Source: Octopus vulgaris
Taxonomy: Eukaryota
NCBI GenBank assembly: GCA_951406725.2
Contig: OX597814.1
Coordinates: forward strand, 10,602,001-10,666,000
Direction: 5' to 3'
Length of the DNA: 64,000 nt
The notes beneath the pieces are model-generated. The model had not been told where the DNA came from. It did not search any database and saw only the letters and a program-made list of their open reading frames with translations. The translations under genes and the position numbers were made by a program. Positions 6,656 through 63,657 of this stretch are shown here, piece by piece (position 1 is the first letter of the stretch; each line of letters begins with the position of its first letter).

Positions 6656-7375
6656 TTATTTTATTCTATTTTTATTTGTAGTCTTCAAATACATATTCAT
6701 ATGAATGTGTACATGATTATCTTTTTCACACTTACTGTTAAGGAGCCTGTGCTTAGATTTTAAAATTTGGAAGATTTCATCAATAGATAAATCAAAACGG
6801 GTGTCAGCTATTTTACAGGATCTAGCATGGCTGATTATTTCCCAATTTAGGCTAAATTCCTTATTTTTGTCCTTTAATTCCCAAATAAACTTTGGTTTAT
6901 TTTTGTTTCTAAACGTATTTTCGTGGTTGGCGATTCTTCTCTTGATAAAATTCTCCATGGTACCCATGTAATGATTATTTAGTCCCTTAGATTCTACCTT
7001 GTACCTATATACTACATTTTTCTGTTTGAAAAGATTATTAAATGGACAGTTAGCTTTGAATTTGCGATCACAACCAATATTTTTATTTTTCTCAAAAAAT
7101 CTGTGGTCTATCAATATTAATCATGTCTCTAGCGTTATTTCTTTTCCGTATAATTTCAAGGTTAAAATGGGAGTAAACATGTGTTACCTCTCTTTCTCCA
7201 CAGGAAGATTTCATTTTACATACATTGTAATTGGAACATTCTGATTGTTTTGCGAGGTATCAGAATCGCACATATTTCTATTGTTATAGAAACTATTCAT
7301 TATTTTATTATTAAGTGAATAAATAATTTGAGAAACATTGAGACGGAGAAACCAAATCTAAGTTTTCCGTGTTAA
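6656..7375 (-). mobile_element. Penelope-like element fragment, decayed GIY-YIG endonuclease
   Basis: ORF 6656-7114: CPFNNL..KNVVYRYKV..HYMGT..IKRRIANH..IWELKDK..WEII..DLSIDEIFQI..LLNSKCE follows the PLE GIY-YIG layout. Upstream NVSQIIYSLNNKI matches the PLE linker. A (TA)n tract lies nearby at 6475-6526. Confidence 0.8.
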
Positions 7376-17667: not shown

Positions 17668-18059
17668 TCTTTATATATAAAAGAGAGGTTGTGTGCTGTC
17701 TGTCTCCTATGATTTAGATTCCTAACTACTCACACATTTTGCGGTCCAGTTTAACCAAAACTGGGTATCTTATAGTCGTGATTCATATCGAGCCCTTCTG
17801 GGTATTAGCGCGCGTCTACGATGAGTCTACGATTTAAAAAAATTTACCATCAATTTTTCCCATTTTTAATGCATTTTTGGCATATATAAGGGAAGTAACT
17901 CTCTAAAAATGTATTATTAAATCTCAGAACGTAAAAAGCTACAGTAACACCCCCTTTGTGGTTAGCCATATTGAGATGGCTATTATACTTTACATCTCTA
18001 AAAATGATTATATAGTTATTTCCCTTACAAACCCGAGCAACGCCGGGCGATACTGCTAG
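17668..18059 (+). mobile_element. Non-autonomous Helitron (392 bp)
   Basis: A|TC start, CTAG|T end, subterminal hairpin cccgagcaacgccggg (18032-18047), no TSD. Confidence 0.8.
17912..17994. mobile_element. Miniature family F foldback insert inside the Helitron
   Basis: 12-bp direct repeat tctctaaaaatg (17900-17911 / 17995-18006). The left part resembles 57300-57317 and the right part resembles 57648-57707. Confidence 0.7.
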
Positions 18060-18299
18060 TATATTATAACAGAACAAAAACACACGGAAAAAAGCAGCCT
18101 TTGACCACTGCTGTGCATGAACAGCACTTAAATGGAGTGAAACGTCATAAGAAATTTTACGCACAAATCTTGAATAACCCGAGAAAATTAACCGATATTT
18201 GCGACTACTAGACAGAGGACTAACGATCAGGTCGTCAATTCAAAGGACAGAGAATTCATCAGTGCAAAACAAATTTCACAAACAAGAATACACACATAT

Positions 18300-25342: not shown

Positions 25343-25497
25343 TGCTCAAGAGATTTGAACTCGAGCAGATAGAGGAGTAAATGTAAGGACAAGCAAGTTA
25401 GTCAAGTCGATAACCAAAAATATTAAATATATTTGATATTTTAAAAAGATGTACATATTTCGCATAACCGTAGCTATGAGCTGAAACTACAGCACAA

Positions 25498-25565
<68 letters not shown>

Positions 25566-25779
25566 TCCGACTTACACAGAATGGAAATGATAACAGGAAT
25601 TAAGGTAGTTGAGTAGGAGTTTTACGAGTCCAACAGTTCATTTCTGATATCGTTTCCATTCTGTGTAAGACGGACTTCTTTTATATGTGCATTATTTATA
25701 TTAAATGTATATTGATTTGACTAACTTGCTTGTCCTTACATTTACTCCCCTACCTGCTCAAGTTCAAATCTCTTGAGCA
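25343..25779. repeat. Nested inverted repeats (foldback element)
   Basis: Outer arms 25343-25412 / 25710-25779; inner arms 25566-25600 / 25640-25674. Confidence 0.85.
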
Positions 25780-26326: not shown

Positions 26327-26666
26327 GTGTGTGTGTGTATTTAAGTGTCAAATTCGAGGTTAGTACTTCAACGTATTTTTAACAATATGAAAAACCCATT
26401 AACTGAGAAGGTGCGATCAATTCTGAGAATAGATTGAAATATATTGTGCAAATTCGTGTTGGGTAGAGTTCTAAGTTTCTTCTAACGGCATATTAATCAC
26501 AAGTTAAGTGAAATGTCTGGCAAAATTTACCGTGTTACTCAACACGGATTTTACAATCTATCTATCTGTCCTTTTTGTATCACCTAGTTGTCCGGGTGTT
26601 TTGCGTTCTTGTCCCATTTTATATTTTATGTTTTTTATATACATACATATATATATATATATATAT

Positions 26667-26936
26667 AACTAAAAATAAGGGTATCTGAGACACCACCATG
26701 CCAAAATAGCAGTCAAATCCCTGACTATAAAGACCACCTTAAATGTTCATATCGCCCCATGAGATAAGACAGAGGGACAAAATAGACTAACCAAAAGATA
26801 TTAGACTAGAAAAATGTCTATTTTGTCCCTCTGTCTTATCTCATGGTGCGATATGAACATTTAAGGTGGTCTTTAGAGTCAGGGATTTGACTGCTATTTC
26901 GGCATGGTGGTGTCTCAGACACCCTTATGTTTAGTT
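26667..26936. repeat. 121-bp inverted repeat with 28-nt spacer
   Basis: 26667-26787 is the reverse complement of 26816-26936 with 5 mismatches by hand count. Begins directly after (TA)n. Confidence 0.9.
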
Positions 26937-27350
26937 GTAAAAAATTATTACCTTTGTATGGTATTTTTTCTCATGGCGGCCACTTGATAATATCGATATA
27001 GGCTTTTTTGTTGTATATATATTAGTTTTTTATTATTAATTGTTGTCTTCGTCTTTTCGTTTGGCACTAAGCCTTTATTCTGCTTACTGTTTAGTCCCTC
27101 GTCCGGCTACTGACAGCCTCGTTTCGTTAGGTTTTGGTTCAATTCCCGGCAAGTTTCTTACCAGTGCCGCCAGGGTGGAAGCAGTCTTATCGACAATGGC
27201 TGAAATAGCATTGGCCGATAACTGATGAGGAGTTGGTGACCTCCTGTGCTTTCTGTTCGTCTATGTGTGTATATATATATATGTGTGTTTATATATATGT
27301 GTGTATATATATATGTGTGTATATATAATTATGTATGTATATATATATAT

Positions 27351-28092
27351 ACTTACTTTACTTTGATACTTTGATAGGTTTCGGCCATTATTGGCCCAGG
27401 CCATGTCTAACTTAATAGCACCACCTGGTGAAGTCTTTCAAGTCAGAATTTGGGCACTATGGCCCACTCAAGTAGAGAGTTATTGTTTACAGAGACATAT
27501 CCGGGTGTAGGGGGTTTATCCGGGATTTCTTGAAGGAATCTGTCCAAAGACTTCTTGAACCCTATAGGGTCAGTTTCTGTTTTAATGTATTTTGGTGTAA
27601 TGTTAAAGAGAGCGGGGCCAATTGAGGTGAAATAATTGTGCCGTATTGTTGTTATGAGATGAGAGTGCGATTTTTGTTTTGGGCGGATGGCACGGGGCCC
27701 AAGCCTTGGATGTACCTTAAAGGTGATGCCAACATCATTTGGGCAATGCTGATGGAATATTTTCCACATCATGCAGATGATGTAGCGCTCACGACGACGT
27801 TGGAGAGAATAGAGTTTTAGCTTTTCTAGTCGACCCCAATAGTCGAGGCCTGTCATGCCATCTATCTTTTTTGTGATTGCCCTTTGAGGTGCTTCGACTT
27901 TTATGATACCTTGTATTGTGTGGGGAGACCACAGTGGACAACAGTATTCAAGGTGGGGTCGGGCAAAAGTGGAGAAGAGAAGGATAATGGTGTGGATATC
28001 TCTCGACTGGAAAGTTCTGAGAATCCAGGAACACATTCTGCGGGCCATGTCAACTTTGGTGTTTATATGAGTGGCCCAGCTTACGTTGTTGT
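27351..28092 (-). mobile_element. 5'-truncated CR1-group LINE (ORF2 C-terminus, 3' UTR, short repeat tail)
   Basis: Open frame [52 protein letters not shown], typical of the post-RT region of CR1-like elements. Tail tatcaaagtatcaaagtaaagtaagt. Confidence 0.85.
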
Positions 28093-28117
28093 ATATGTAT
28101 GTATATATATATATATG

Positions 28118-28162
<45 letters not shown>

Positions 28163-28187
28163 ATATATATATGTATATATATGTATA

Positions 28188-28297
<110 letters not shown>

Positions 28298-28365
28298 TAC
28301 GTCAAATTTTCCGTTTGTTGTTTTTATTTAATCCTGAAAAATATATACATACGAAAAATATATAC

Positions 28366-49097: not shown

Positions 49098-49620
49098 ATT
49101 GCCAGCTCACCATGTGACAGTCCCAAATCTTTCAGACCTCCTTGTCGTATTTGGCAGCTCTCATGCTTCTTTTGAGCTTTCGCTTTCGCATTCCTGGATT
49201 CGATTTATTTTTCCACCTTTCGTTCTATCTCCCTTTCTATTTCTTCCATAATTTCACATTGCTTTCCATCTCTCTGCTTTCCTTTACCAGTCCTGTAGAT
49301 CATCATTTTCTAAGTGTTATTCCTATACATGTCTTGTCTTAATACTGTCTCATAGAAGTAAGCCCTCTATTAGTATGTGTATGTTTATTTATGCAACAAC
49401 CACCTGTGTCATTACCGTCCTTTTCATTTGATCACTTATTCTCAGCAGCTTTCTGCTGTTGACGCCACCAGAATGACCAATCTAATCATTAAAGGCGTGA
49501 AACTGTCAGGATTTTTGGATGATAACTGATGGTGGAAGAACATGTCCACTTCTTGTGTGTGAATTTTCAGTGAGTTCGCTTGCCTGTGTTGTCTACAATT
49601 GTTGAAAATTATATATATAT

Positions 49621-50395
49621 ATAATAATTCTCTAAAAGAGATATAGACAGTAACTGCTCGATAACATAAGGGACTAAAGCCATCTGAATATGGCTAGGGA
49701 CAGGGCAGAGTGGTGGGGGTGTTACTGTTGCATTTAGCCCCAGGCGAACATCGACGTCACCAGAAAGGCTCGACACCGTCACGGTGCCCTTAACCTGCAA
49801 AGGGAGGTAATTCCCCGATGAAGCGGAAACCACACACGGACCATGGTTTCAAGGTGTATTGCCTATCGTCGGCGTGTGGTAGGCTTCCGCTTCCTCGACG
49901 AACTCTCACTCTGCAGGATATTCATATATAGATTTTCAAGCAAAATACATTTGCTGATTTCGAAAATCTGTTCGAAAGCAATAATAATTCTCTAAAAGAG
50001 ATATAGACAGTAACTGCTCGATAACATAAGGGACTAAAGCCATCTGAATATGGCTAGGGACAGGGCAGGGTGGTGGGGGTGTTACTGTTGCATTTAGCCC
50101 CAGGCGAACATCGACGTCACCAGAAAGCTTGAAAATCTATATATGAATATCCTGCAGAGTGAGAGTTCGTCGAGGAAGCGGAAGCCTACCACACGCCGAC
50201 GATAGGCAATACACCTTGAAACCATGGTCCGTGTGTGGTTTCCGCTTCATCGGGGAATTACCTCCCTTTGCAGGTTAAGGGCACCGTGACGGTGTCGAGC
50301 CTTTCTGGTGACGTCGATGTTCGCCTGGGGCTAAATGCAACAGTAACACCCCCACCACCCTGCCCTGTCCCTAGCCATATTCAGATGGCTTTAGT

Positions 50396-50399
<4 letters not shown>
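49621..50399. mobile_element. Family F element: 360-bp monomer, partial tandem copy and inverted copy
   Basis: 49981-50127 repeats 49621-49767 with 1 mismatch. 50127-50399 is the reverse complement of 49669-49941. Flanked by (TA)n. Confidence 0.85.
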
Positions 50400-50467
<68 letters not shown>

Positions 50468-50573
50468 ACATATATATATATATATGTAGACACACACACA
50501 CACACGTATATAGTGTGTGTGTGCCTGTATATGCTTACGTTTATACATAGAGGCACATACACAAACACTTATC

Positions 50574-50623
<50 letters not shown>

Positions 50624-50931
50624 TATGTATACTTATATAAATGTATGAACAAGTATATGTGTATATATGCATAATATATGCATTAACATATGCACACACA
50701 TATGCATTTATATACGGAAACATAAGTACCCTATTGTTTCTGCCTTTACATAACAAATACCCAACGTAGATGATCTGTACAACGTACGCTTGAATTAATG
50801 GCAGTAGGAGTTTATTAATATGACTGCTTAAAATTACATATATGAACATATTTGCATGTACAGGGATTAGTAACGTCCTTGAATTCATACGTACGTACAT
50901 ACATACCTACATATATACATACATATATAAA

Positions 50932-50973
<42 letters not shown>

Positions 50974-51024
50974 TATATGTATACACACACACACATATAT
51001 ATATATATATATGTATACACACAC

Positions 51025-51099
<75 letters not shown>

Positions 51100-51132
51100 C
51101 ATATATATATATATATATGTATATATATATGT

Positions 51133-51193
<61 letters not shown>

Positions 51194-51615
51194 CCTCCAA
51201 GTTTGTTTATTGCTTTTCCCTTCTGACTGGAAACTTATGTATATGCATAATGTTTGTTTGTTGTAGAATATTCTACAGAGTGAATTTGTCCACATCTCTC
51301 TTCAGCATTTTAAATATTGACAAAATCTATGTGCATGGGTGATCTTTTTGGGAAGTTCATATTAATACATGTGTGTGCATGTGTACGGATATGCGTATGT
51401 GCCTATATATATGCATATATGTACACATGCAGGATGGATGTGTGTGTGTGGTTTTTTTTTTTAGAGGCTGAGTGAGCATCTTAGCAAATTCAAGTTGGAT
51501 TTTGTAGGATTAGAGACATGACTTCACAATTTTTGAATTATACCCCCTCCAAGGAAATCTTGCTCGTAAAAAATAGATAATAATAAATCCAGTATATATT
51601 TGAAATGTTTAATGC

Positions 51616-51694
<79 letters not shown>

Positions 51695-52405
51695 CATATA
51701 TGTATGAATACATATATATATATATATATGTGTGTGTATACATACATATATGTATATATATGTATATATATATATATTCATATTATCATATTCATTGATA
51801 CCCATCCATATGTATATGTATGTATCTGCATGTACGTGTGCATTCGATCGTGCACGTGTGTGCGAGAGAGAGAGAGAGAGACGATGATGTTCGTGGGAAT
51901 ATGCCAAATGTCATACCTGTCATATTCGTGTGCGTGTGCGCTTAGCTGAAAGTGTATACGTGTTAGTATCCCAGTAGATTCCTCAAGAATATTTGTTTTC
52001 TTCGTTGCCTGAAACTCTATTCGTAATAAAAAAATTTCAAAACAAAATTTTAACTAATGCAGTCTCTATCCAGCTTCTACCTCGTGAAGCACCTCTGCCG
52101 AAAAATACTTCTCAATATTGCAGTTTTCTTTGTTCGAGTTCTTTGACTTTGTTCATATATTTTTGTGTGTGTGTATGTTTATTTTTATGTATAAGTATGT
52201 ATATGTATATATGTATGTATGTATAAACGTACACAAGTTCACAGATGCATATTCATATGCACAGAATCATATATATGTTTGTGTGCATATATATATACAT
52301 ATACAAGTATAAATGTATGGATGGATGGATGTACACTTGTATCATTATGCATTAATGTATACATATGCACAAAAACATATATAATATATTAGAACATGTA
52401 TCTGA

Positions 52406-52447
<42 letters not shown>

Positions 52448-52696
52448 GTAGTAACAGAAAATAGGAATTTCGATTGTCCCCACGTGGTGGGTTGTAATAT
52501 ATATAAGAAATAAAAAAAAAGGAAAATATGCACACTCCCATGGTTTTAATATAATTTTTAATATATCGACCGGTTTCGCTATCGCTATTCATGATATTAT
52601 GTTTAATTTATTTGAATATATATTTTTTCTTAAGAAGAAATTTGGTCTATGTTGTGTGATGAAATTCACGAGTGAATGACTTCACAAGTAGACAAA

Positions 52697-52703
<7 letters not shown>

Positions 52704-52732
<29 letters not shown>

Positions 52733-52866
52733 TGTATGTATGTATGTATGTATGTATGTATGTATGTATGTATGTATGCATGAATGTATGTATGTATGTA
52801 TGTATGTATGTATGTATGTATGTATGTATGTATGTATGCATGAATGTATGTATGTATGTATGTATG
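52704..52866. repeat. (ATGT)n with a duplicated GCATGA interruption (60-bp higher-order unit)
   Basis: Lines starting at 52741 and 52801 are identical. Confidence 0.85.
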
Positions 52867-53289
52867 AATGAATGGATGAATGGACGGATGGATGCATTGT
52901 CCATGCATCTATGTATACATATATATTTGTATGTTTGAATGAGTGTATATATTTATGCCTGATTTATATTTGTGTGAATGGTTAACGAGTGCTATATGTC
53001 AGTTTGCTTGGAGATATAGAGATAAACGTTTTTATTCACGAAAAATGCCTTACATATAAATTCAAAATGTTTATATATAAAATCACGCGCACATATGCGT
53101 GTATGTGTATGGCTCTAGGGTAAGAAATATGCTTCTCAAGAAGTATACTGCTCAAGCTCCAGGTACAGTCCCCACATTGAGGCATCTGGGGACAACTGTC
53201 TTCTGCCATTGCTGCGTTGCTGTGAGCCGACCAGTGTTGTGAACGGATCTTTTAGACGGAAATGAAGGAACCCCATCGTATATATATAT

Positions 53290-53338
<49 letters not shown>

Positions 53339-53465
53339 TCACAATCAAGAGCAGAAATGGCGTATTCCAAATTAACAAGGTAATGTAATCCGATGGTAGA
53401 AAGAATTCCGCGAATTAGGTACTCCAAAGTCAGTCAGAAGACCTGGGTCCGTGTGAGCGTGCGGT

Positions 53466-54050
53466 ATATAGTAAATCCCTCCAAAGTAGAACAAACACAA
53501 AAAGACAACAACGTGAGGACGGGGTACATGTAAAATATTAGCAGACGCTCAGGGAAGGAAAGAATGATCATTTAACATTTCGAGCAACGCTTTTCTTCAG
53601 AATCAGAGGTAAGTCTAATAAAAAGAAAGACGGAACTTCCTTTCTTCTTTCTTTATTGCCCACAAGGTGCTAAACATAAAGGGGACAAACAAGGACAGAC
53701 ATAGGTATTAAGTCGATTACATCGATACCAGTGCGTGACTGGTACATAATTTATCGACCCCGAAAGGATGAAAAGTAAAGTCGACCTCGGCGGAATTTGA
53801 ACTCAGAACGTTACGGCAGACGAAATACCGCTAAGCATTTCGCTCGGCGTGCTAACGTTTCTGCCAGCTCGCCGCCTTTCTATTGGATCTTCCTTTCTAT
53901 TGGACTTTCTTCCGTTTCTGAAGAAGAGCGTTGCTCGGAATGTTAAACCATCTTTCTCTCTTTCCCTGAGCGTCTGCTAATATTTTACATGTACCACTTA
54001 CTCGCTTTATTTTTTTGCGTTTGTTTTTTTTTTTTTTCGATTTACTATAT
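53466..54050. mobile_element. Inverted pair of Penelope pLTR-like arms with degenerate minimal hammerhead motifs
   Basis: 53466-53630 vs the reverse complement of 53889-54050; shared ggtacatgtaaaatattagcagacgctcagggaa and CTGAAGA-A-GAGC-GTT-GCTC-GRAA. Confidence 0.7.
53646..53877 (-). mobile_element. SINE family E in the spacer of the inverted repeat
   Basis: Reverse complement of 35412-35645. Confidence 0.85.
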
Positions 54051-55484
54051 GTGTATGTGTGTGTGTGTGCGTGTGCATGTTTGTGTATGCACTGTTACTA
54101 ATATGATAATTTGTAAATATGTGAATATATGGATAAATAACGTAATGAATTCATATCATATTTGAAGTTGCCATGTATTTGTAGTTGCATATCCATGTAT
54201 GCAAACAGTAATATACTTTCTCCATACATATTCTAAATATCTTAATGTAAAGCATACATATTTCTAACCTTCAAGTTTCAGATCTACACCGAAAACATTG
54301 CCTATGTGCTTGACATCGAACTTTGAAACTATTGGCTGATAAGCTTATATAAGATTTAGTGATAATAAATGTGTTAAATGTACACTTGTGAACTACATCA
54401 TTAATTAGGCTATTTCTTTCTAAAGGATACATGTTCAGCTTAGCACAGTTGAACTTGCATTAAAGCTACTGCCAACGTAATAATTTTTAATTTAACTAGA
54501 TTCGAAACTACAATGCTTTGGTTGGGCCTCGTGGAATAAGGTTATCTAGCAATATATATAATTCGGAATACGCCATTTCTGCAGTTTGATTGTGAATCAT
54601 ATATATATATATATGATTCGCAATCAATTATAATACATATTTTGTAGAGCAAAATGTTACTTGTATTACAAAACAATATCTCTTGATATAGGCACTGGAA
54701 TCTTCATATCAAGCACATATAAACTGACGTATGTATTGATGTATTTGTATGTTTTTTTCTTTACGGTAATCAGCATAGAGAAGGGCTTATATATCATTAT
54801 AATTCGTGAAGCAGAATACTGATTGTACTTGTAAGTGCAGGATTTACCTCCCTGGAGTCATAAAAAAACAACAACCAATACTAAGGAACATATCATTAAC
54901 CCAAATGCTCTATTTTCGACTATAGATATCTTAGTGTTTCATGCGGATATTCGGCCAACATCAGCTGTGGGAGACTACGATTTCAAACACATACCTCTCA
55001 CTACATTCATTAATATTTCGTGCAGCAGCGTTACATATTACTTGTCAGCTGATGTGGTGTTACTGGTGATTTTTTTTTATTTACTGATTTACCAATATTA
55101 TAGTTCCATAAGGGTCATAAACTACTTTAATCTACAAAGCGCTGAACATTCGTGTTGTTTATTGCTAGTGTTACAGGTTAAGCGTAAGGAAAGAAAAACA
55201 AAACAACGTAAAACCACTTGTAAGAGCGTGTGATCTGTTAGTATGTGGATAAGTTCTAACAAGAGATCTCAATTTATAGAGGATAGAGTTTAAAAAAAAA
55301 AATTCTCGTTACTTGTTGAAAATTATCCATTCAGCATTAGTAATCCGAGTAATCGTGATACACACACGTTTGTGTATTTAGGACCTACATATATAAAATT
55401 ACACAAAAAACACGCATACCACGCTAACAACTCTCACACATACAAACACCTTTATATATGTGTTCGTGTGTGTGTGTATCTGAA

Positions 55485-55518
<34 letters not shown>

Positions 55519-55523
55519 CACGC

Positions 55524-55555
<32 letters not shown>

Positions 55556-55558
55556 CTA

Positions 55559-55626
<68 letters not shown>

Positions 55627-56390
55627 TATGTAGTATCTATATATGTATGTATGTATATATATATATATATATATATGTATGTACGTAAGTACATATGTAT
55701 ACCCGACCGTATATACAATTTCAAGCAACCTTCCTTGATATGTTATCTTACTTTAATAAATTATTATGTCACCTTGTCTCTTACAGAGGAAATGACAGTT
55801 AAGGAGTAAGACGTGTCTTACTGATATGTAACCGATATGAAGTCAATGTAAGACACTTCTCGCCAAGGTGGCGACATTCAGTTTTATCACCTTATTCTAA
55901 TACTGTAATTTGATACTATAAACCACACACCAGTTACTCTATCTCTCAGTATTTGTATAATTGTGTACGTAAGTATTCGGGACTGTATGAATTTACACGC
56001 ACACAAACACACGTGATACATGTGTGTGTGTGTGTGTGTGCTTGTTTGTTTGTGTGTGTGTGTTTGTTCTAGTTTATATATTTCAGTCATTGAACGGCGG
56101 ATTTGCTGGGCGGAACTTTAAAACTTGAACAGGTTTTAAGTGAACATGTGTCCAGAACTTATTCTGTCTTGAGTATAGTACTGATATTAACTGATCGATA
56201 TGTTGGGACGTTAGGATACTTGGGTAATAATGACACAGAATAAGGTTCAACATGTGTTCTCTGTTATTGCGCTCTGTCGACGGAGAGACATATATGTATG
56301 TATATATGTATGTATGTATGTATGCTTGAATGCATGTATGTATAAATGCATGTATGCATGCATGCATGTATGTATGTATGAATGTGTATA

Positions 56391-56643
56391 TTTCTTTATT
56401 GCCCACAAGGGGCTAAACATAGAGGGGACAAACAAGGACAGACAAAGGGATTCAGTCGATTATATCGACCCAGTGCGAAACCGGTACTTTATTTATCGAC
56501 CCCGAGAGGATGAAAGGCAAAGTCGACCCCGAGAGGATGAAAGGCAAAGTCGACCCCGGCGGAATTTGAACTCAGAACGTAACGACAGACGAAATACCGC
56601 TAAGCATTTCGTCCGGCGCGCTAACGTTTCTGCCAGCTCGCCG
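56391..56643 (-). mobile_element. SINE family E with an internal 27-bp tandem duplication
   Basis: tcgaccccgagaggatgaaaggcaaag at 56496 and 56523. Confidence 0.85.
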
Positions 56644-56723
56644 TATGAATGTATAAATGTACGTATGTATGTATGAATGCATGCTTGTAATTATGCGTGT
56701 GTGTGCGTGCGTGTGTTTATGTA

Positions 56724-58184
56724 TACAGAGAGTGTTCGGGATAAATTTTACGATTTTTATCTCTCCTTTTCTTTCGGGAACAGCTTGATGTATTGGCTAA
56801 CAATCAATGACATCGGAGAGCGTAAAGATTAAAGTTGTAATTGAGAAAACGTTAGCTAACATTGGAGGACTGGAAGCCGTCTGAATACCGAGAAAGATTT
56901 AGTTTATGTAATGAGGATTCGCGCCGGCTGTCAAAACGCAGACATCATGATTCCTTCTCAGTGTTGTGAACATTGTAAAATCTATAAGATGCAACATGGA
57001 CTTCGTGAAAACTAAGTTGCCCCAAACAGTGGTGGTCTTTTGGTATGTGTCTACCTCCCCCCAAACAGTGGTGGTCTTTTGGTATGTGTCTACCTCCCCC
57101 CAAACAGTGGTGGTGTTTTGGTATGTGTCTACCCCCCCCCCCACAACTTTAAGGAGGGTCTTAGTCTCAATTCATACGGCGATGTAAAAATTTTGGAGTC
57201 TGTGGTCAATTCTAGGCTGGAGAGAGTTGCTGCTGGAAAACCATAAGTGTGGCAACAAGATTCGCCTTTTTACCATATATCCAGAAGATATCAGAGGTGA
57301 TAATAAATCTCTGAACGAGGTATAAACAGTAACTGCACGACAATGTGAGGTATACTTGCCATCTCAATACGGCTAACCACTAAGGGTGGGTGTTACTGTA
57401 GCTTGTAGCCCCAAGGGAACATCGTCTCCAGCTGGCTTTAAGCACACTTTCTGTGCCCTTATGGTATTTAGCCCCAGGAGAACATCGTCTCCAGCTGGCT
57501 TTAGGCACACTTTCTGTGCCCTTATGGTATTTAGCCCAGGAAACACGTTCAGGCACACTTTCTGTGCCCTTATGGTATTTGCAAATACCATAAGGGCTCA
57601 GAAAGTGTGCCTAAAGCCAGCTGGAGACGATGTTCTCCTGGGGCTACAAGCCACAGTAATACCCACCCTTAGTGGTTAGCCTTATTGAGATGGTAAATAT
57701 ACCTCACATATCAGAGGTGGTTGTTTGAAAATTTCTATGCCTTCACTAGCCCCAATTTCTAGCTTCCTAATTTCCCCAAATATAATTCTATGGATTACGC
57801 TGTGCGTAAAGTAGTTGAATAAGACACCAAACTCTCTGCCTGCAAATTCAAGACTGAGTCGGTGGCCACAATCAATGAAGTCTTCGGGGATCTTCTCAAG
57901 AATACAGTGGAAAACTCATGCGCCAGGTACCGGAGCTGTTTGAGGCCGTGGTATAAGCTAAAGGCAACTACTTTGAGTAAACTACTTTCTCCCGATGCGA
58001 ACCATCATGGTACAAGGAACTCTTTTCCAATATTCAGATGATTTCAAGTCCTCCATGTCAGCTAGATTTTTCTCAACTTTGATCTTTATGCTCTCAAATA
58101 CTGTTGACTGCTCACCAATATGTCAAGCAGTTCATGAGAAAAAGGAGACATAAAAATCGTTAAATTTAACCCGAACACTCTGTA
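56724..58184 (+). mobile_element. Tc1/mariner (maT/DD37D-like) relic with long TIRs
   Basis: TA-flanked TIRs cagagagtgttcgggataaattttacgatttttatctctccttt / aaaggagacataaaaatcgttaaatttaacccgaacactctg. Remnants KTKLPQTVVVF and F*LPNFPKYNSMDYAVRKVVE (cf. WPPNSPDxNPMDY). 39-bp tandem x3 at 57021-57137. Confidence 0.75.
57300..57707. mobile_element. Family F foldback element inserted in the maT-like relic
   Basis: 12-bp TSD atatcagaggtg (57288-57299 / 57708-57719). 63-bp sub-repeats at 57406, 57469 and 57532. Palindromic apex TTTG|CAAA at 57581/57582. Homologous to 49621-49790. Confidence 0.85.
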
Positions 58185-58289
58185 TACATACATACATACA
58201 TACATACATACATACATACATACATACATACATACATACATACATACATACATACATACATACAAATATAGATATATACATACATGCAT

Positions 58290-58760
58290 AAACACCAGCT
58301 CAAGGAATACTGGTGGAATATACCCCTCTAAACGTCTGTCAAATGTAAACATAACAGACCGGATATTGTTGTTTGGGACAGAGGGGCAAAGGTATGTACC
58401 GTCATAGAGGTCCGCTGCCCTGGAGATATGAATATCTCTTTGGAAATCAATAGAAAAGAGGTTATCGATGGCCAACTGCTTCGAAACATGCAGCTTCTAT
58501 ATCCAGACTATGAATTCGTATTCATACCAATAATAATTGGAGTACTAGGTTTTGTTAGTAGAAACTTAAAGGAAAACCTGGATAAACTGGCTAATTCGTA
58601 CATTATAAGTCCAGTCTATGAGTGGAACAGTAAAAATATGCAAGACTTTTCTTACGTTCCAAAAGTGGATTTGTCTGTGTTAAAACTACATCACAAAGAT
58701 GAAGTCTTGCATTTTTGTTGGAAACCAGCTCCCTTCCCAGTGGAAGATTTATAATAATTA
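58290..58760 (+). mobile_element. R4/Dong-like LINE 3' fragment (restriction-like endonuclease)
   Basis: YWWNIPL*TSVKCKHNRPDIVVWDRGAKVCTVIEVRCPGDMN..LLRNMQLLYP..IPIIIGVLG is the RPD..E RLE motif, in frame with ORF 58428. Flanked by (TACA)n. Confidence 0.75.
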
Positions 58761-60693: not shown

Positions 60694-61391
60694 TTGTTGA
60701 GTATTGCTCTCTGGGAGATATCTTGTAGTAGTAAAACAGTAGTTTTAACTGCTATTTCTAAATTTCGGTATGTAGTAAATCAAATTTTGCTACAACCCTA
60801 ATTATGATTATACTCATAATTATTGAATTTTTGTATATATGTTTACCGATAATGGTTCTTTTAACATACCGAACTACTTGGTAAAATTATTAATTATTAA
60901 TTGATTAATTAATTAATTTTACTCTTTATTATTATTGATAATATAATTCTATCCCTGATAGTAAACTACACTTTCTGCTGAATTTTGCTCGTTGGTACAC
61001 GTGGGTGTGTGAGGAGGAATGCGAGATCCCATTCGTCTGTTTGAATTCGGAAGTGCTGGTCTTTGGATATATGCTGTTTGATGTCGCTTGGTCAAATACG
61101 TATGTTAGTTATCAGTGATCTCAAATTTAAAATTTGAAAAACTGTACTGTTAAGGAGAGTGTGTGATTAGAAATATGATTTTACATTTTTCCCATCTTTC
61201 TAACTCCGAAACGCGTATACGGGTAGAGTCGTTATTTTTTTCTCTTTCTCTGCGTGAGTTGTTGAGTATTGCTGTCTGGGAGATATCTTATAGTAGTAAA
61301 GTAGTAGTTTTAAGGGCTATTTCTAAATTTCGGTATGTGGTGAAGCAAATTTTGCTGAACCTTCCCTAATTATAATTATACTCATAATTAT
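60694..61391. repeat. Diverged direct repeat of about 130 bp (60694-60823 / 61259-61391)
   Basis: Shared ttgttgagtattgct.tctgggagatatctt..ctatttctaaatttcggtatgt..attatactcataattat. Confidence 0.85.
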
Positions 61392-61407
61392 AGATTTTAT
61401 ATATATA

Positions 61408-61800
61408 CTAGAAGTATCACCCGGCGCTGCTCGGGTTTGTTTCAACCCTTTAGAATTGGAATTTTTGAAAAGTAAAAAATGTGCATTATGTAGCTTGTTA
61501 TTCTCTTTAAGTGAACATTTTTCTGGTTGAAATGCACCACAAAATGGCGACAGAGCAGTAAAAAGTCGTAAAAAATAGTGATTTTCAATAAAAAAAAGCA
61601 CCTTTCTGATGTAAATTAATTTTTGGTGTTAATATTGGTCCGATTTGAATTTTTTCTTCCACGGAAAGAAGACCAAGCCTTCTTCTATCATACTTTCAAT
61701 TTTGGTTAACTTGCGCCGCAGGGTCTCGGAGGAGATAGTGATAGTTGAATGCTACCAAACCTGCCATACACAGACAACTTCAGCTTTATATATATATAGA
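61408..61800 (-). mobile_element. Non-autonomous Helitron (393 bp)
   Basis: Minus strand A|TC...CTAG|T; hairpin cccggcgctgctcggg (61420-61435). Termini similar to 17668-18059. Confidence 0.8.
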
Positions 61801-62818: not shown

Positions 62819-63657
62819 AATGTAGGATTAAATTTTTCGAAAAAAATTCTATCAAAGGCCAGCATATTAAAAAATACCTTTCAAGGTTAAATTTATAAAC
62901 AATTTATAAGTAAGGGCAAAAGAAAAAAATTTTAATGCCAAAATATGCCGAAAATAGACACAACGTCAATAACCATGTAATTTATGACTACAAGCACGCG
63001 TTTCGAAGAAAGCCGACAGAAATTTCTAAAAAATCCCCTTATTACCATATCGCACCCGATTTCAGAGTTAGTTCATAAGAACCTGCTCTTCATCAGTGAT
63101 AATTGCGGCAAAGGAATAAGTGAAATACTTACTTACACCCATGGAAGTGGATTTATATACTATATATATACATATATATATGGATATATATATATATATA
63201 TATCAATGGAATAAAACGCAATAGAGGGCATTAAAATTTTCGGACAGATAGACGATACATAGGCGGACAAGAGAAACGATAATTAGAAGGACAGGCAAAA
63301 ATAGACGGGTTATTCTTGGCTTTCTTTCATCAGTCAAGTCCCTGAAGTCACGACCATTTCAAGTAGTTACACTTGACATGGTTCGATTTGATTTCTTCCA
63401 AAAATGTCTGTGCTAAGAGCATTAGACGTCTTTGTAAGAAAGCTAGCGAATGTGTACGGCAACAAAGACAACAAAAAAAAGAGAGAAACAAATAAACAAA
63501 AAGCGGAGAACATGGTACACAATTACGGTATTCATTTGTAAAGTGCTTGTAAGCACGCTTTGCTTACCTACGCGGTAATACTAAGATCATTCTTAAAATC
63601 GAGGTAGCTGATATTTTGTATATTTCTGTTTGACCTATATATAATATATAAGTGCAG

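What the first reader, a model, noticed from the sequence alone, without database searches (positions are those of the whole stretch)
57288..57719. Three independent family F insertions share the same two end points
Seen: the copies at 17912, 49621 and 57300 all start with an ATAATAA(A/T)TCTCT-like end, then switch strand. The inverted arm always stops at about the same position, 45-48 nt short of that end (..ATACCTCAC at 57707, ..AGTCCCT at 50399, ..ATACTTTACA at 17994), although the inserts are 408, 779 and 83 bp. Two have perfect 12-bp TSDs (atatcagaggtg; tctctaaaaatg). This copy has a spacer-less palindromic apex (57581/57582) and 63-bp sub-repeats. Established: Penelope inserts have a pLTR plus a short 3' extension and often an inverted 5' pLTR. 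Inference: a defined two-ended priming or RNA-processing mechanism, with the fixed site about 45 nt from the end as a candidate cleavage or priming site.
Basis: partly seen in the sequence, partly recalled or inferred. Interest (0 to 1): 0.8.

Follow-up and report, generated by a model that had tools for sequence, protein, structure and literature searches.

The report
Penelope-type tail on hammerhead-ribozyme repeat insertions
Three copies of a short repeat, the longest carrying a hammerhead-ribozyme-like motif, share two end points about 45 bases apart, which is most likely the known 'tail' mark of Penelope-like retrotransposons, left here on what is probably a small non-coding passenger element (a retrozyme).

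Summary
Three unrelated loci (A 57300-57707, B 49621-50399, C 17912-17994) each carry two head-to-head arms of one repeat family. One arm runs to a common terminus; the inverted arm stops 43-48 nt short of it. A and C have perfect 12-bp target duplications; B sits in (TA)n.

The mechanism idea is not new. It is the 30-40-nt Penelope 'tail', which Frangieh et al. 2024 traced in vitro to two reverse-transcription start sites.

That is the profile of animal non-LTR retrozymes. Both B arms read through the predicted cleavage site, 170-218 nt from the fixed ends, so the ribozyme does not make those ends. The arms are not fold-back copies, which favours two separate cDNAs primed from the two target strands.

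No RT/GIY-YIG partner was found, and the ends could be examined in only three copies.

Verdict: a new member of a known kind, with a modest chance of being structural evidence that Penelope machinery mobilises retrozymes.

The parts
57288..57299 (+). Copy A, left target-site duplication (12 bp; 10 bp if the 2-nt overlap with the element is assigned to the element)
57300..57344 (-). Copy A, 'tail': the 45 nt (43 with microhomology) present only in this arm; likely the 3'-most part copied from the RNA
57345..57468 (-). Copy A, left arm body, including the first 63-bp unit (57406-57468)
57469..57581 (-). Copy A, second 63-bp unit and a third, internally deleted unit
57566..57597 (.). Copy A, spacer-less palindromic apex (16-bp perfect arms); its centre aligns with a 6-nt motif that B has at the homologous place, so probably template-encoded microhomology
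57582..57707 (+). Copy A, inverted arm without tail; 93% identical to the left arm; one intact 63-bp unit, closer to unit 2 (61 of 62) than unit 1 (58 of 62)
57708..57719 (+). Copy A, right target-site duplication
49621..49668 (-). Copy B, 48-nt tail, next to (TA)n
49621..49980 (-). Copy B, 360-nt unit (GC 0.48; RNA fold z -4.7 for 348 of its 360 nt)
49833..49878 (-). Type I hammerhead-like motif: 6-bp helix I, core CCGACGA (U4 is C), helix II of 3 bp on a U-U mismatch, 2-bp helix III with palindromic tetraloop, GUC triplet; predicted cut after 49839; inside a long hairpin (49785-49925, z -6.5)
49981..50127 (-). Copy B, second (partial, 147-nt) unit in tandem, with its own tail; 1 mismatch to the first unit
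50127..50399 (+). Copy B, inverted arm without tail (273 nt; 272 of 273 identical to the first unit), ends in (TA)n
50190..50235 (+). Second copy of the hammerhead-like motif, in B's inverted arm
17900..17911 (+). Copy C, left target-site duplication (12 bp)
17912..17931 (-). Copy C, 20-nt piece of the tail end
17932..17994 (+). Copy C, inverted arm (63 nt), ends 44 (43) nt short of the terminus; shares no sequence with the 20-nt piece
17995..18006 (+). Copy C, right target-site duplication

Best explanation
The three inserts are head-to-head pairs of one repeat whose two outer ends lie at fixed sites 43-48 nt apart, and they were likely made by the reverse transcriptase/endonuclease of a Penelope-like element (PLE) copying a short, non-coding, hammerhead-bearing RNA of the non-LTR retrozyme type. 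Steps. (1) Shown: two arms, both with their 3' ends (as oriented by the hammerhead) against the target DNA; 12-bp TSDs in 2 of 3 copies; a 360-nt period and a hammerhead-like motif in B. (2) Inferred: the PLE protein nicks both target strands about 12 nt apart. (3) Inferred: each nick primes its own cDNA, one from the outer start site (giving the tail) and one from the inner start site (no tail), as found in vitro for anole Poseidon. (4) Inferred: the template was uncut multimeric or circular RNA, since both B arms cross the predicted cleavage site and one runs 507 nt, 1.4 units. (5) Inferred: the two cDNAs stop at variable points and are joined by short microhomology, which gives the variable lengths (83, 408, 779 bp) and A's palindromic apex.
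For: Anatomy matches the published PLE insertion: inverted 5'-truncated copy, tail on one end only, 8-10-bp TSDs, palindromes at inverted junctions, microsatellite bias (PMC3846280 passages; PMC8557442 passages). Two RT start sites bounding the tail, and nicking and extension of both strands, are shown for PAc (PMC11167929). The hammerhead descriptor hits B twice and nothing else in the window under the strict form; 0 of 5000 shuffles of the unit match. Its architecture (2-bp helix III with tetraloop, U-U at the base of helix II) is that described for axolotl HHR_Amex2, and 360 nt lies in the 350-390 bp range of mussel retrozymes (PMC7229834 passages). The unit folds far better than shuffles (z -4.7; hairpin z -6.5), and the 39-nt 'linker' pairs with the shared part, suggesting it is native to the RNA. 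The arms are not fold-back copies. B's inverted arm holds 174 nt absent from the adjacent partial unit. C's two arms share no sequence. A's inverted unit lacks the deletion of the adjacent unit. The ATG-started frame through the tail shows no coding constraint (A vs B, first 17 codons: 6 identical, 1 synonymous, 10 non-synonymous), as expected of a non-coding passenger.
Against: Only three copies were examined. No RT or GIY-YIG sequence is linked to the family (all blank). The tail is 43-48 nt, longer than the 30-40 nt reported. The hammerhead departs from consensus (U4 is C, no G10.1-C11.1 pair), has no Rfam hit, was found with a descriptor written after seeing it, and is not the preferred fold (-4.4 vs -30.4 kcal/mol). 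It is seen in B only, because A and C are truncated before it. The 360-nt period rests on one junction in one copy, and B has 1.4 units, fewer than the two full units that Li et al. require of an active retrozyme. The 3' domain around the two sites does not fold better than shuffles (z -1.0 and -0.2), although an 8-bp stem is invariant between A and B (16 of 16 at 73% background, p about 0.007, post hoc).
Confidence: 0.6

Rival explanations
1. Same two-start mechanism, but the inserts are just 5'-truncated pLTR ends of an autonomous PLE. B's 360-nt 'unit' is a one-off partial tandem made by a template jump, and the ATG before the tail is the ORF start.
For: Partial tandems are the normal PLE structure. 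In Adineta Pen2a the pLTR plus tail encodes the first 22 aa of the ORF; here an ATG-started, stop-free 21-codon frame fills ATG-to-terminus in A and B without indels. A 38-codon frame in B ends at a stop inside the hammerhead and could be an ORF C-terminus.
Against: No coding constraint (1 synonymous vs 10 non-synonymous codons). Neither peptide finds a relative, though these are weak tests for such short pieces. The ribozyme is of canonical retrozyme build, whereas metazoan PLE ribozymes are mostly minimal with a long helix II (PMC4209133).
Confidence: 0.25
2. One cDNA folds back on itself, or a hairpin/cruciform intermediate forms, and the endonuclease resolves it at a fixed site about 45 nt from the end. 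The inner end is then a DNA cut, not an RT start.
For: Craig et al. suggested endonuclease resolution for the tail, and Arkhipova et al. self-priming for junction palindromes. A has a perfect spacer-less apex.
Against: In B, C and A the inverted arm is not a mirror of the sequence next to it. In vitro data for PAc place the RT starts exactly at both tail boundaries.
Confidence: 0.1
3. The inner end is made by RNA processing (ribozyme or nuclease cut), giving two RNA species with different 3' ends.
For: The family carries a hammerhead-like motif. PAc RNA-seq read ends fall on the start sites, which processing could also produce.
Against: The predicted hammerhead cut is 170 and 218 nt away from the two ends, and no ribozyme motif lies at either end. 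For PAc, ribozyme mutants did not change the insertion product.
Confidence: 0.04
4. Coincidence, or a MITE-like DNA element with asymmetric terminal inverted repeats.
For: n = 3 and the test is post hoc; B's end is blurred by (TA)n.
Against: p = 0.0009-0.012 for the clustering. The interior is not conserved between copies and one end always carries extra sequence, unlike TIR elements (general knowledge). A hammerhead motif and a tandem unit point to an RNA intermediate.
Confidence: 0.01

Closest known systems
Penelope-like elements with GIY-YIG endonuclease (Penelope/Poseidon, Neptune, Nematis, Naiad); Poseidon of Anolis carolinensis (PAc), PMC11167929
   Same: Inverted 5'-truncated arm, tail at one end only, two fixed ends, partial tandem, TSD, type I hammerhead upstream of the tail, copies made from uncleaved RNA, AT-rich/(TA)n target.
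   Different: Tail 43-48 nt instead of 30-40. The hammerhead cut is 170-218 nt from the ends and 155 nt upstream of the candidate ATG, whereas in PAc the ORF starts inside the ribozyme. No ORF is attached here.
Adineta vaga Pen2/Pen2a/Pen3a (PMC3846280)
   Same: Inverted pLTRs with 8-10-bp TSDs, a 31-bp tail on one of them, palindromes at the inverted junction, about 22 codons in pLTR plus tail.
   Different: Those carry an RT-EN ORF; TSDs here are 12 bp (10-11 if microhomology is assigned to the element).
Animal non-LTR retrozymes (PMC7229834; bioRxiv 10.64898/2026.07.22.740005)
   Same: Unit of 360 nt (mussel 350-390), GC under 50%, one type I hammerhead per unit with HHR_Amex2-like helices, strong folding, TSDs longer than 4 bp, no coding signal.
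   Different: Only 1.4 units seen and no circular RNA shown. Non-consensus core. The passages read describe no tail or inverted arm for retrozymes.
L1 twin priming (recalled, not from a call)
   Same: Both target strands prime cDNA, giving an inverted 5' part inside a TSD; copy C (20 nt, 24-nt gap, inverted 63 nt) fits it as it stands.
   Different: In L1 the second priming site is variable and the arms do not overlap; in A and B the arms repeat the same sequence, which needs a second template or a multimer/circle.

Membership tests
EN+ Penelope-like element | ORF with telomerase-like RT and GIY-YIG endonuclease attached to these termini | tested here: inconclusive
   None in the three inserts. 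Peptides from B and A found nothing, but they are 30-72 aa with at most 17-38 aa of possible homology. No genome is held.
EN+ Penelope-like element | 5'-truncated copies in partial tandem and/or inverted (pLTR arrangement) | tested here: met
   Inverted arm in 3 of 3 copies, partial tandem in B.
EN+ Penelope-like element | 30-40-nt tail at one end only | tested here: met
   Present in 3 of 3 copies, but 43-48 nt long.
EN+ Penelope-like element | Target-site duplication | tested here: met
   12 bp in 2 of 3 copies; unreadable in B.
EN+ Penelope-like element | Type I hammerhead motif in the terminal repeat | tested here: met
   Descriptor match in B, 0 of 5000 shuffles; not found by Rfam; activity untested.
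EN+ Penelope-like element | RT starts at the two tail boundaries | not testable with these tools
   Needs in vitro TPRT.
EN+ Penelope-like element | Tail encodes the ORF N-terminus under coding constraint | tested here: not met
   Open frame, but 1 synonymous vs 10 non-synonymous codons of 17.
Non-LTR retrozyme | 150-450-nt unit with one type I hammerhead, GC under 50% | tested here: met
   360 nt, GC 0.48, one motif.
Non-LTR retrozyme | Head-to-tail repeats of two or more complete units | tested here: inconclusive
   1.4 units and one junction in one copy.
Non-LTR retrozyme | No protein coding | tested here: inconclusive
   No coding signal or homolog; weak tests.
Non-LTR retrozyme | Self-cleavage and circular RNA in vivo | not testable with these tools
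   Needs transcription assay and RT-PCR/northern.
Naiad (cephalopod families of PMC8557442) | Sequence match to published Naiad consensuses; lack of canonical hammerhead | tested here: not met
   Four 11-12-nt family motifs searched in the supplement text: three with 0 hits, one with 1 hit inside an unrelated coding sequence (long lines in that text are cut and motifs across line breaks would be missed). A hammerhead is present.

The most novel reading that the evidence does not exclude
Family F is a retrozyme caught in the act. Its insertions carry the Penelope-specific double-start signature, and one cDNA runs 1.4 times round a 360-nt unit straight through the ribozyme site. That would be direct structural evidence that PLE enzymes integrate retrozyme circles by two-sided target-primed, rolling-circle reverse transcription from two fixed internal sites. 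It would also map the cis element, a conserved 8-bp stem and 6-bp hairpin around those sites, that the enzyme recognises.
Probability: 0.3. Interest if true: 0.6.

Novelty: new member of a known kind. Interest (0 to 1): 0.35.

Why it matters
The shared end points are the known Penelope tail, so they do not reveal a new mechanism. Two things keep some value. First, how animal retrozymes are mobilised is open: the 2026 preprint links them to PLEs by co-distribution and pLTR homology only, and says the mechanism remains to be elucidated. A retrozyme-like unit whose insertions carry PLE tails, inverted arms and 12-bp TSDs would supply the missing insertion-level evidence. Second, the three copies argue that the inverted arm is a second, independently primed cDNA rather than a fold-back, which speaks to steps that Frangieh et al. 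leave unvalidated. A short, young (arms 272 of 273 identical), non-coding element with two defined start sites would be a compact test substrate.

Tried and rejected
Whole-genome copy collection: no genome held, and no read or contig pile-up on the element was obtained, so the end histogram is open.

Run search: 20 of 24 listed runs, from 11 studies, hold part of 49400-50398; 3 hold half or more of the words; no RNA holder listed. None was laid, so this is not used as evidence.

Motif scans for more copies: metagenome contigs 0, prokaryote genomes 0, viral contigs 2 hits to an 18-nt pattern. Those two match only the pattern itself and are treated as chance.

Protein searches: B's 72-aa frame, 0 of 423 candidates at E<=10; A+B profile, 0 of 47; B's 38-aa frame, 0 among 1.84 billion representatives and no usable Atlas hit; Pfam, nothing above cut-off for 5 peptides. 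The GIY-YIG-like frame at 6656-7120 had 0 of 104 candidates and shows no DNA link to the family.

Rfam: only microsatellite/hairpin noise over 49400-58000 (150 of 195 rows shown) and 0 hits over 49625-50395. Empty sites for A and C: none in the window. Earlier scan findings: nothing in 3 look-ups.

Rejected: the ribozyme cut as cause of the inner end (distance); fold-back synthesis (arms not mirrors); the tail frame as a constrained ORF start; special stability of the 3' domain.

Literature searches for a retrozyme-with-tail or two-template description: searches listed none, judged from listings and the passages read. The library lacks most subscription papers (e.g. Evgen'ev & Arkhipova 2005, Arkhipova 2006, not seen). 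Supplementary figures S1/S2 of PMC11167929 and the supplements of the bioRxiv preprint were not visible and may bear on tail lengths and retrozyme ends.

Full report
Setting. The window is AT-rich animal DNA crowded with microsatellites and decayed transposons. It looks cephalopod to me; that is recall, not a tool result. No whole genome is held, so copy-level statements rest on the three inserts in the window. A profile search found no fourth copy.

Observation. A (57300-57707), B (49621-50399) and C (17912-17994) are homologous (A-B 73%, A-C 87%) and lie in unrelated flanks. A and C are bounded by exact 12-bp direct repeats. Random placements give that in 19 and 149 of 20000 trials. B is in (TA)n. 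In the alignment of six arms, the three full arms end 63 nt after a conserved ATG, and the three inverted arms end at 18, 15 and 19 nt. With 2 nt (A) and 1 nt (C) of microhomology to the TSD, the missing piece is 43-48 nt. Under uniform truncation the clustering has p = 0.0009-0.012, a post hoc test on n = 3. C retains only 20 nt of the outer end (14 of 16 identical to A). A's 16-bp perfect apex and its 63-bp units are as described.

B contains a type I hammerhead-like motif at 49833-49878 on the minus strand, and again at 50190-50235 on the plus strand. It has a 6-bp helix I, a core with C at position 4, three pairs on a U-U mismatch in helix II, a 2-bp helix III with a palindromic tetraloop, and a GUC triplet. 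The strict descriptor matches nothing else in the window and 0 of 5000 shuffles. Rfam does not recognise it, and the ribozyme fold is far less stable than an alternative hairpin (-4.4 vs -30.4 kcal/mol), so activity is unproven. B is a 360-nt unit, 147 nt of a second unit in tandem (1 mismatch), and a 273-nt inverted arm (272 of 273 identical). The unit has GC 0.48 and folds at z -4.7; the hairpin holding the ribozyme folds at z -6.5.

Mechanism. The predicted cut lies 218 and 170 nt upstream of the two fixed ends, and both long B arms cross it. The ribozyme therefore does not make the ends, and the template was uncut at that site (inferred: multimer or circle; 507 nt is 1.4 units). The inverted arm is not a fold-back. 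In B it holds 174 nt that the adjoining partial unit lacks. In C the arms share nothing. In A the inverted unit is intact whereas the adjoining unit is deleted, and it is closer to unit 2 (61 of 62) than unit 1 (58 of 62). I infer two cDNAs, each primed by one nick of a roughly 12-nt staggered cut, starting at two preferred sites and joined by microhomology. A's apex centres on a 6-nt motif that B has at the homologous position. Around the two sites an 8-bp stem is invariant between A and B (p about 0.007, post hoc) and a 6-bp hairpin carries the ATG, but the region as a whole folds no better than shuffles. An ATG-started 21-codon open frame fills the terminus in A and B, yet it shows 1 synonymous against 10 non-synonymous codons, so it is not supported as coding.

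Comparison with what is known. Arkhipova et al. 2013 (PMC3846280, passages) describe inverted pLTRs with 8-10-bp TSDs, a 31-bp tail on one of them, and junction palindromes. Craig et al. 2021 (PMC8557442, passages and supplement searches) give the 30-40-bp tail and microsatellite bias as general features. Goubert-type curation guidance says the same (PMC8969392, passages), and D. virilis has a 34-bp repeat (PMC2377424, passages). Frangieh et al. 2024 (PMC11167929, parts 1-3 of 4; supplementary figures not visible) show that anole Poseidon nicks and extends both strands, starts RT at two internal sites that bound the tail, and uses uncleaved RNA. The two shared end points are thus a known signature with a published explanation. 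The ribozyme build and unit size match retrozymes: HHR_Amex2 with its U-U mismatch, and mussel units of 350-390 bp (PMC7229834, passages). They differ from the minimal motifs typical of metazoan PLEs (PMC4209133, parts 1-2 of 4), which also proposed more-than-unit copying of circles. Li et al. 2026 (bioRxiv 10.64898/2026.07.22.740005, parts 1-3 of 5 and a term search) derive retrozymes from PLEs but never mention tails. Eight literature searches listed no description of retrozyme insertions with PLE tails; the library is incomplete. PMC6962438 (passages) only notes Penelope elements and 235 hammerheads in giant squid.

Results against or short of the reading. No RT or endonuclease could be tied to the family. 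No further copies were found in public contig collections. The tail is longer than reported. The period rests on one junction. The ribozyme is non-consensus and seen in one copy. The genome-wide end histogram, the decisive test, is still open.

Verdict. The feature is real. It works like a PLE insertion (about 0.95 summed over the best explanation and the first two rivals). Membership of the PLE order proper is unproven; a non-autonomous, retrozyme-type passenger is the best single reading (0.6), and a truncated autonomous PLE is next (0.25). New member of a known kind; interest 0.35.

Noticed in passing
window 63041-63103 (-): A second, unrelated type I hammerhead-like motif with consensus core, 7-bp helix I, long helix II and 4-bp helix III; no convincing Rfam hit. 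Possibly the terminal repeat of another PLE family.
   Followed up: partly
window 6656-7120 (-): 154-codon frame resembling a decayed PLE GIY-YIG endonuclease (motif recalled; Pfam and homolog searches blank), followed by (TA)n; no sequence link to the family studied.
   Followed up: partly
window 56700-58750 (+): Copy A sits inside a decayed non-LTR element with an RT-like stretch and a restriction-like endonuclease frame at 58332-58754 (recalled motif; best Pfam VRR_NUC E 0.13); three 39-bp tandem units at 57020-57140.
   Followed up: partly
window 26664-26939: 276-bp fold-back insert next to (TA)n, arms 88% identical, no TSD found; could be another PLE-type inverted insertion.
   Followed up: partly
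window 53466-54050, 25343-25779, 53320-54614, 60694-61407: Further inverted-repeat pairs; no clear TSD of 7 bp or more outside microsatellite.
   Followed up: partly
window 18027-18069 and 61397-61440: Copy C lies just upstream of a repeat end with a GC-rich hairpin and CTAGT, Helitron-like by recall; a second copy lies at 61397-61440.
   Followed up: no
window 27443-28327 (-): C-terminal part of a CR1/L2-like reverse transcriptase frame (recalled motifs; Pfam blank).
   Followed up: no
window 49709 vs 50069: The single difference between B's units: the inverted arm agrees with the partial second unit (99 of 99), not with the first (98 of 99).
   Followed up: partly
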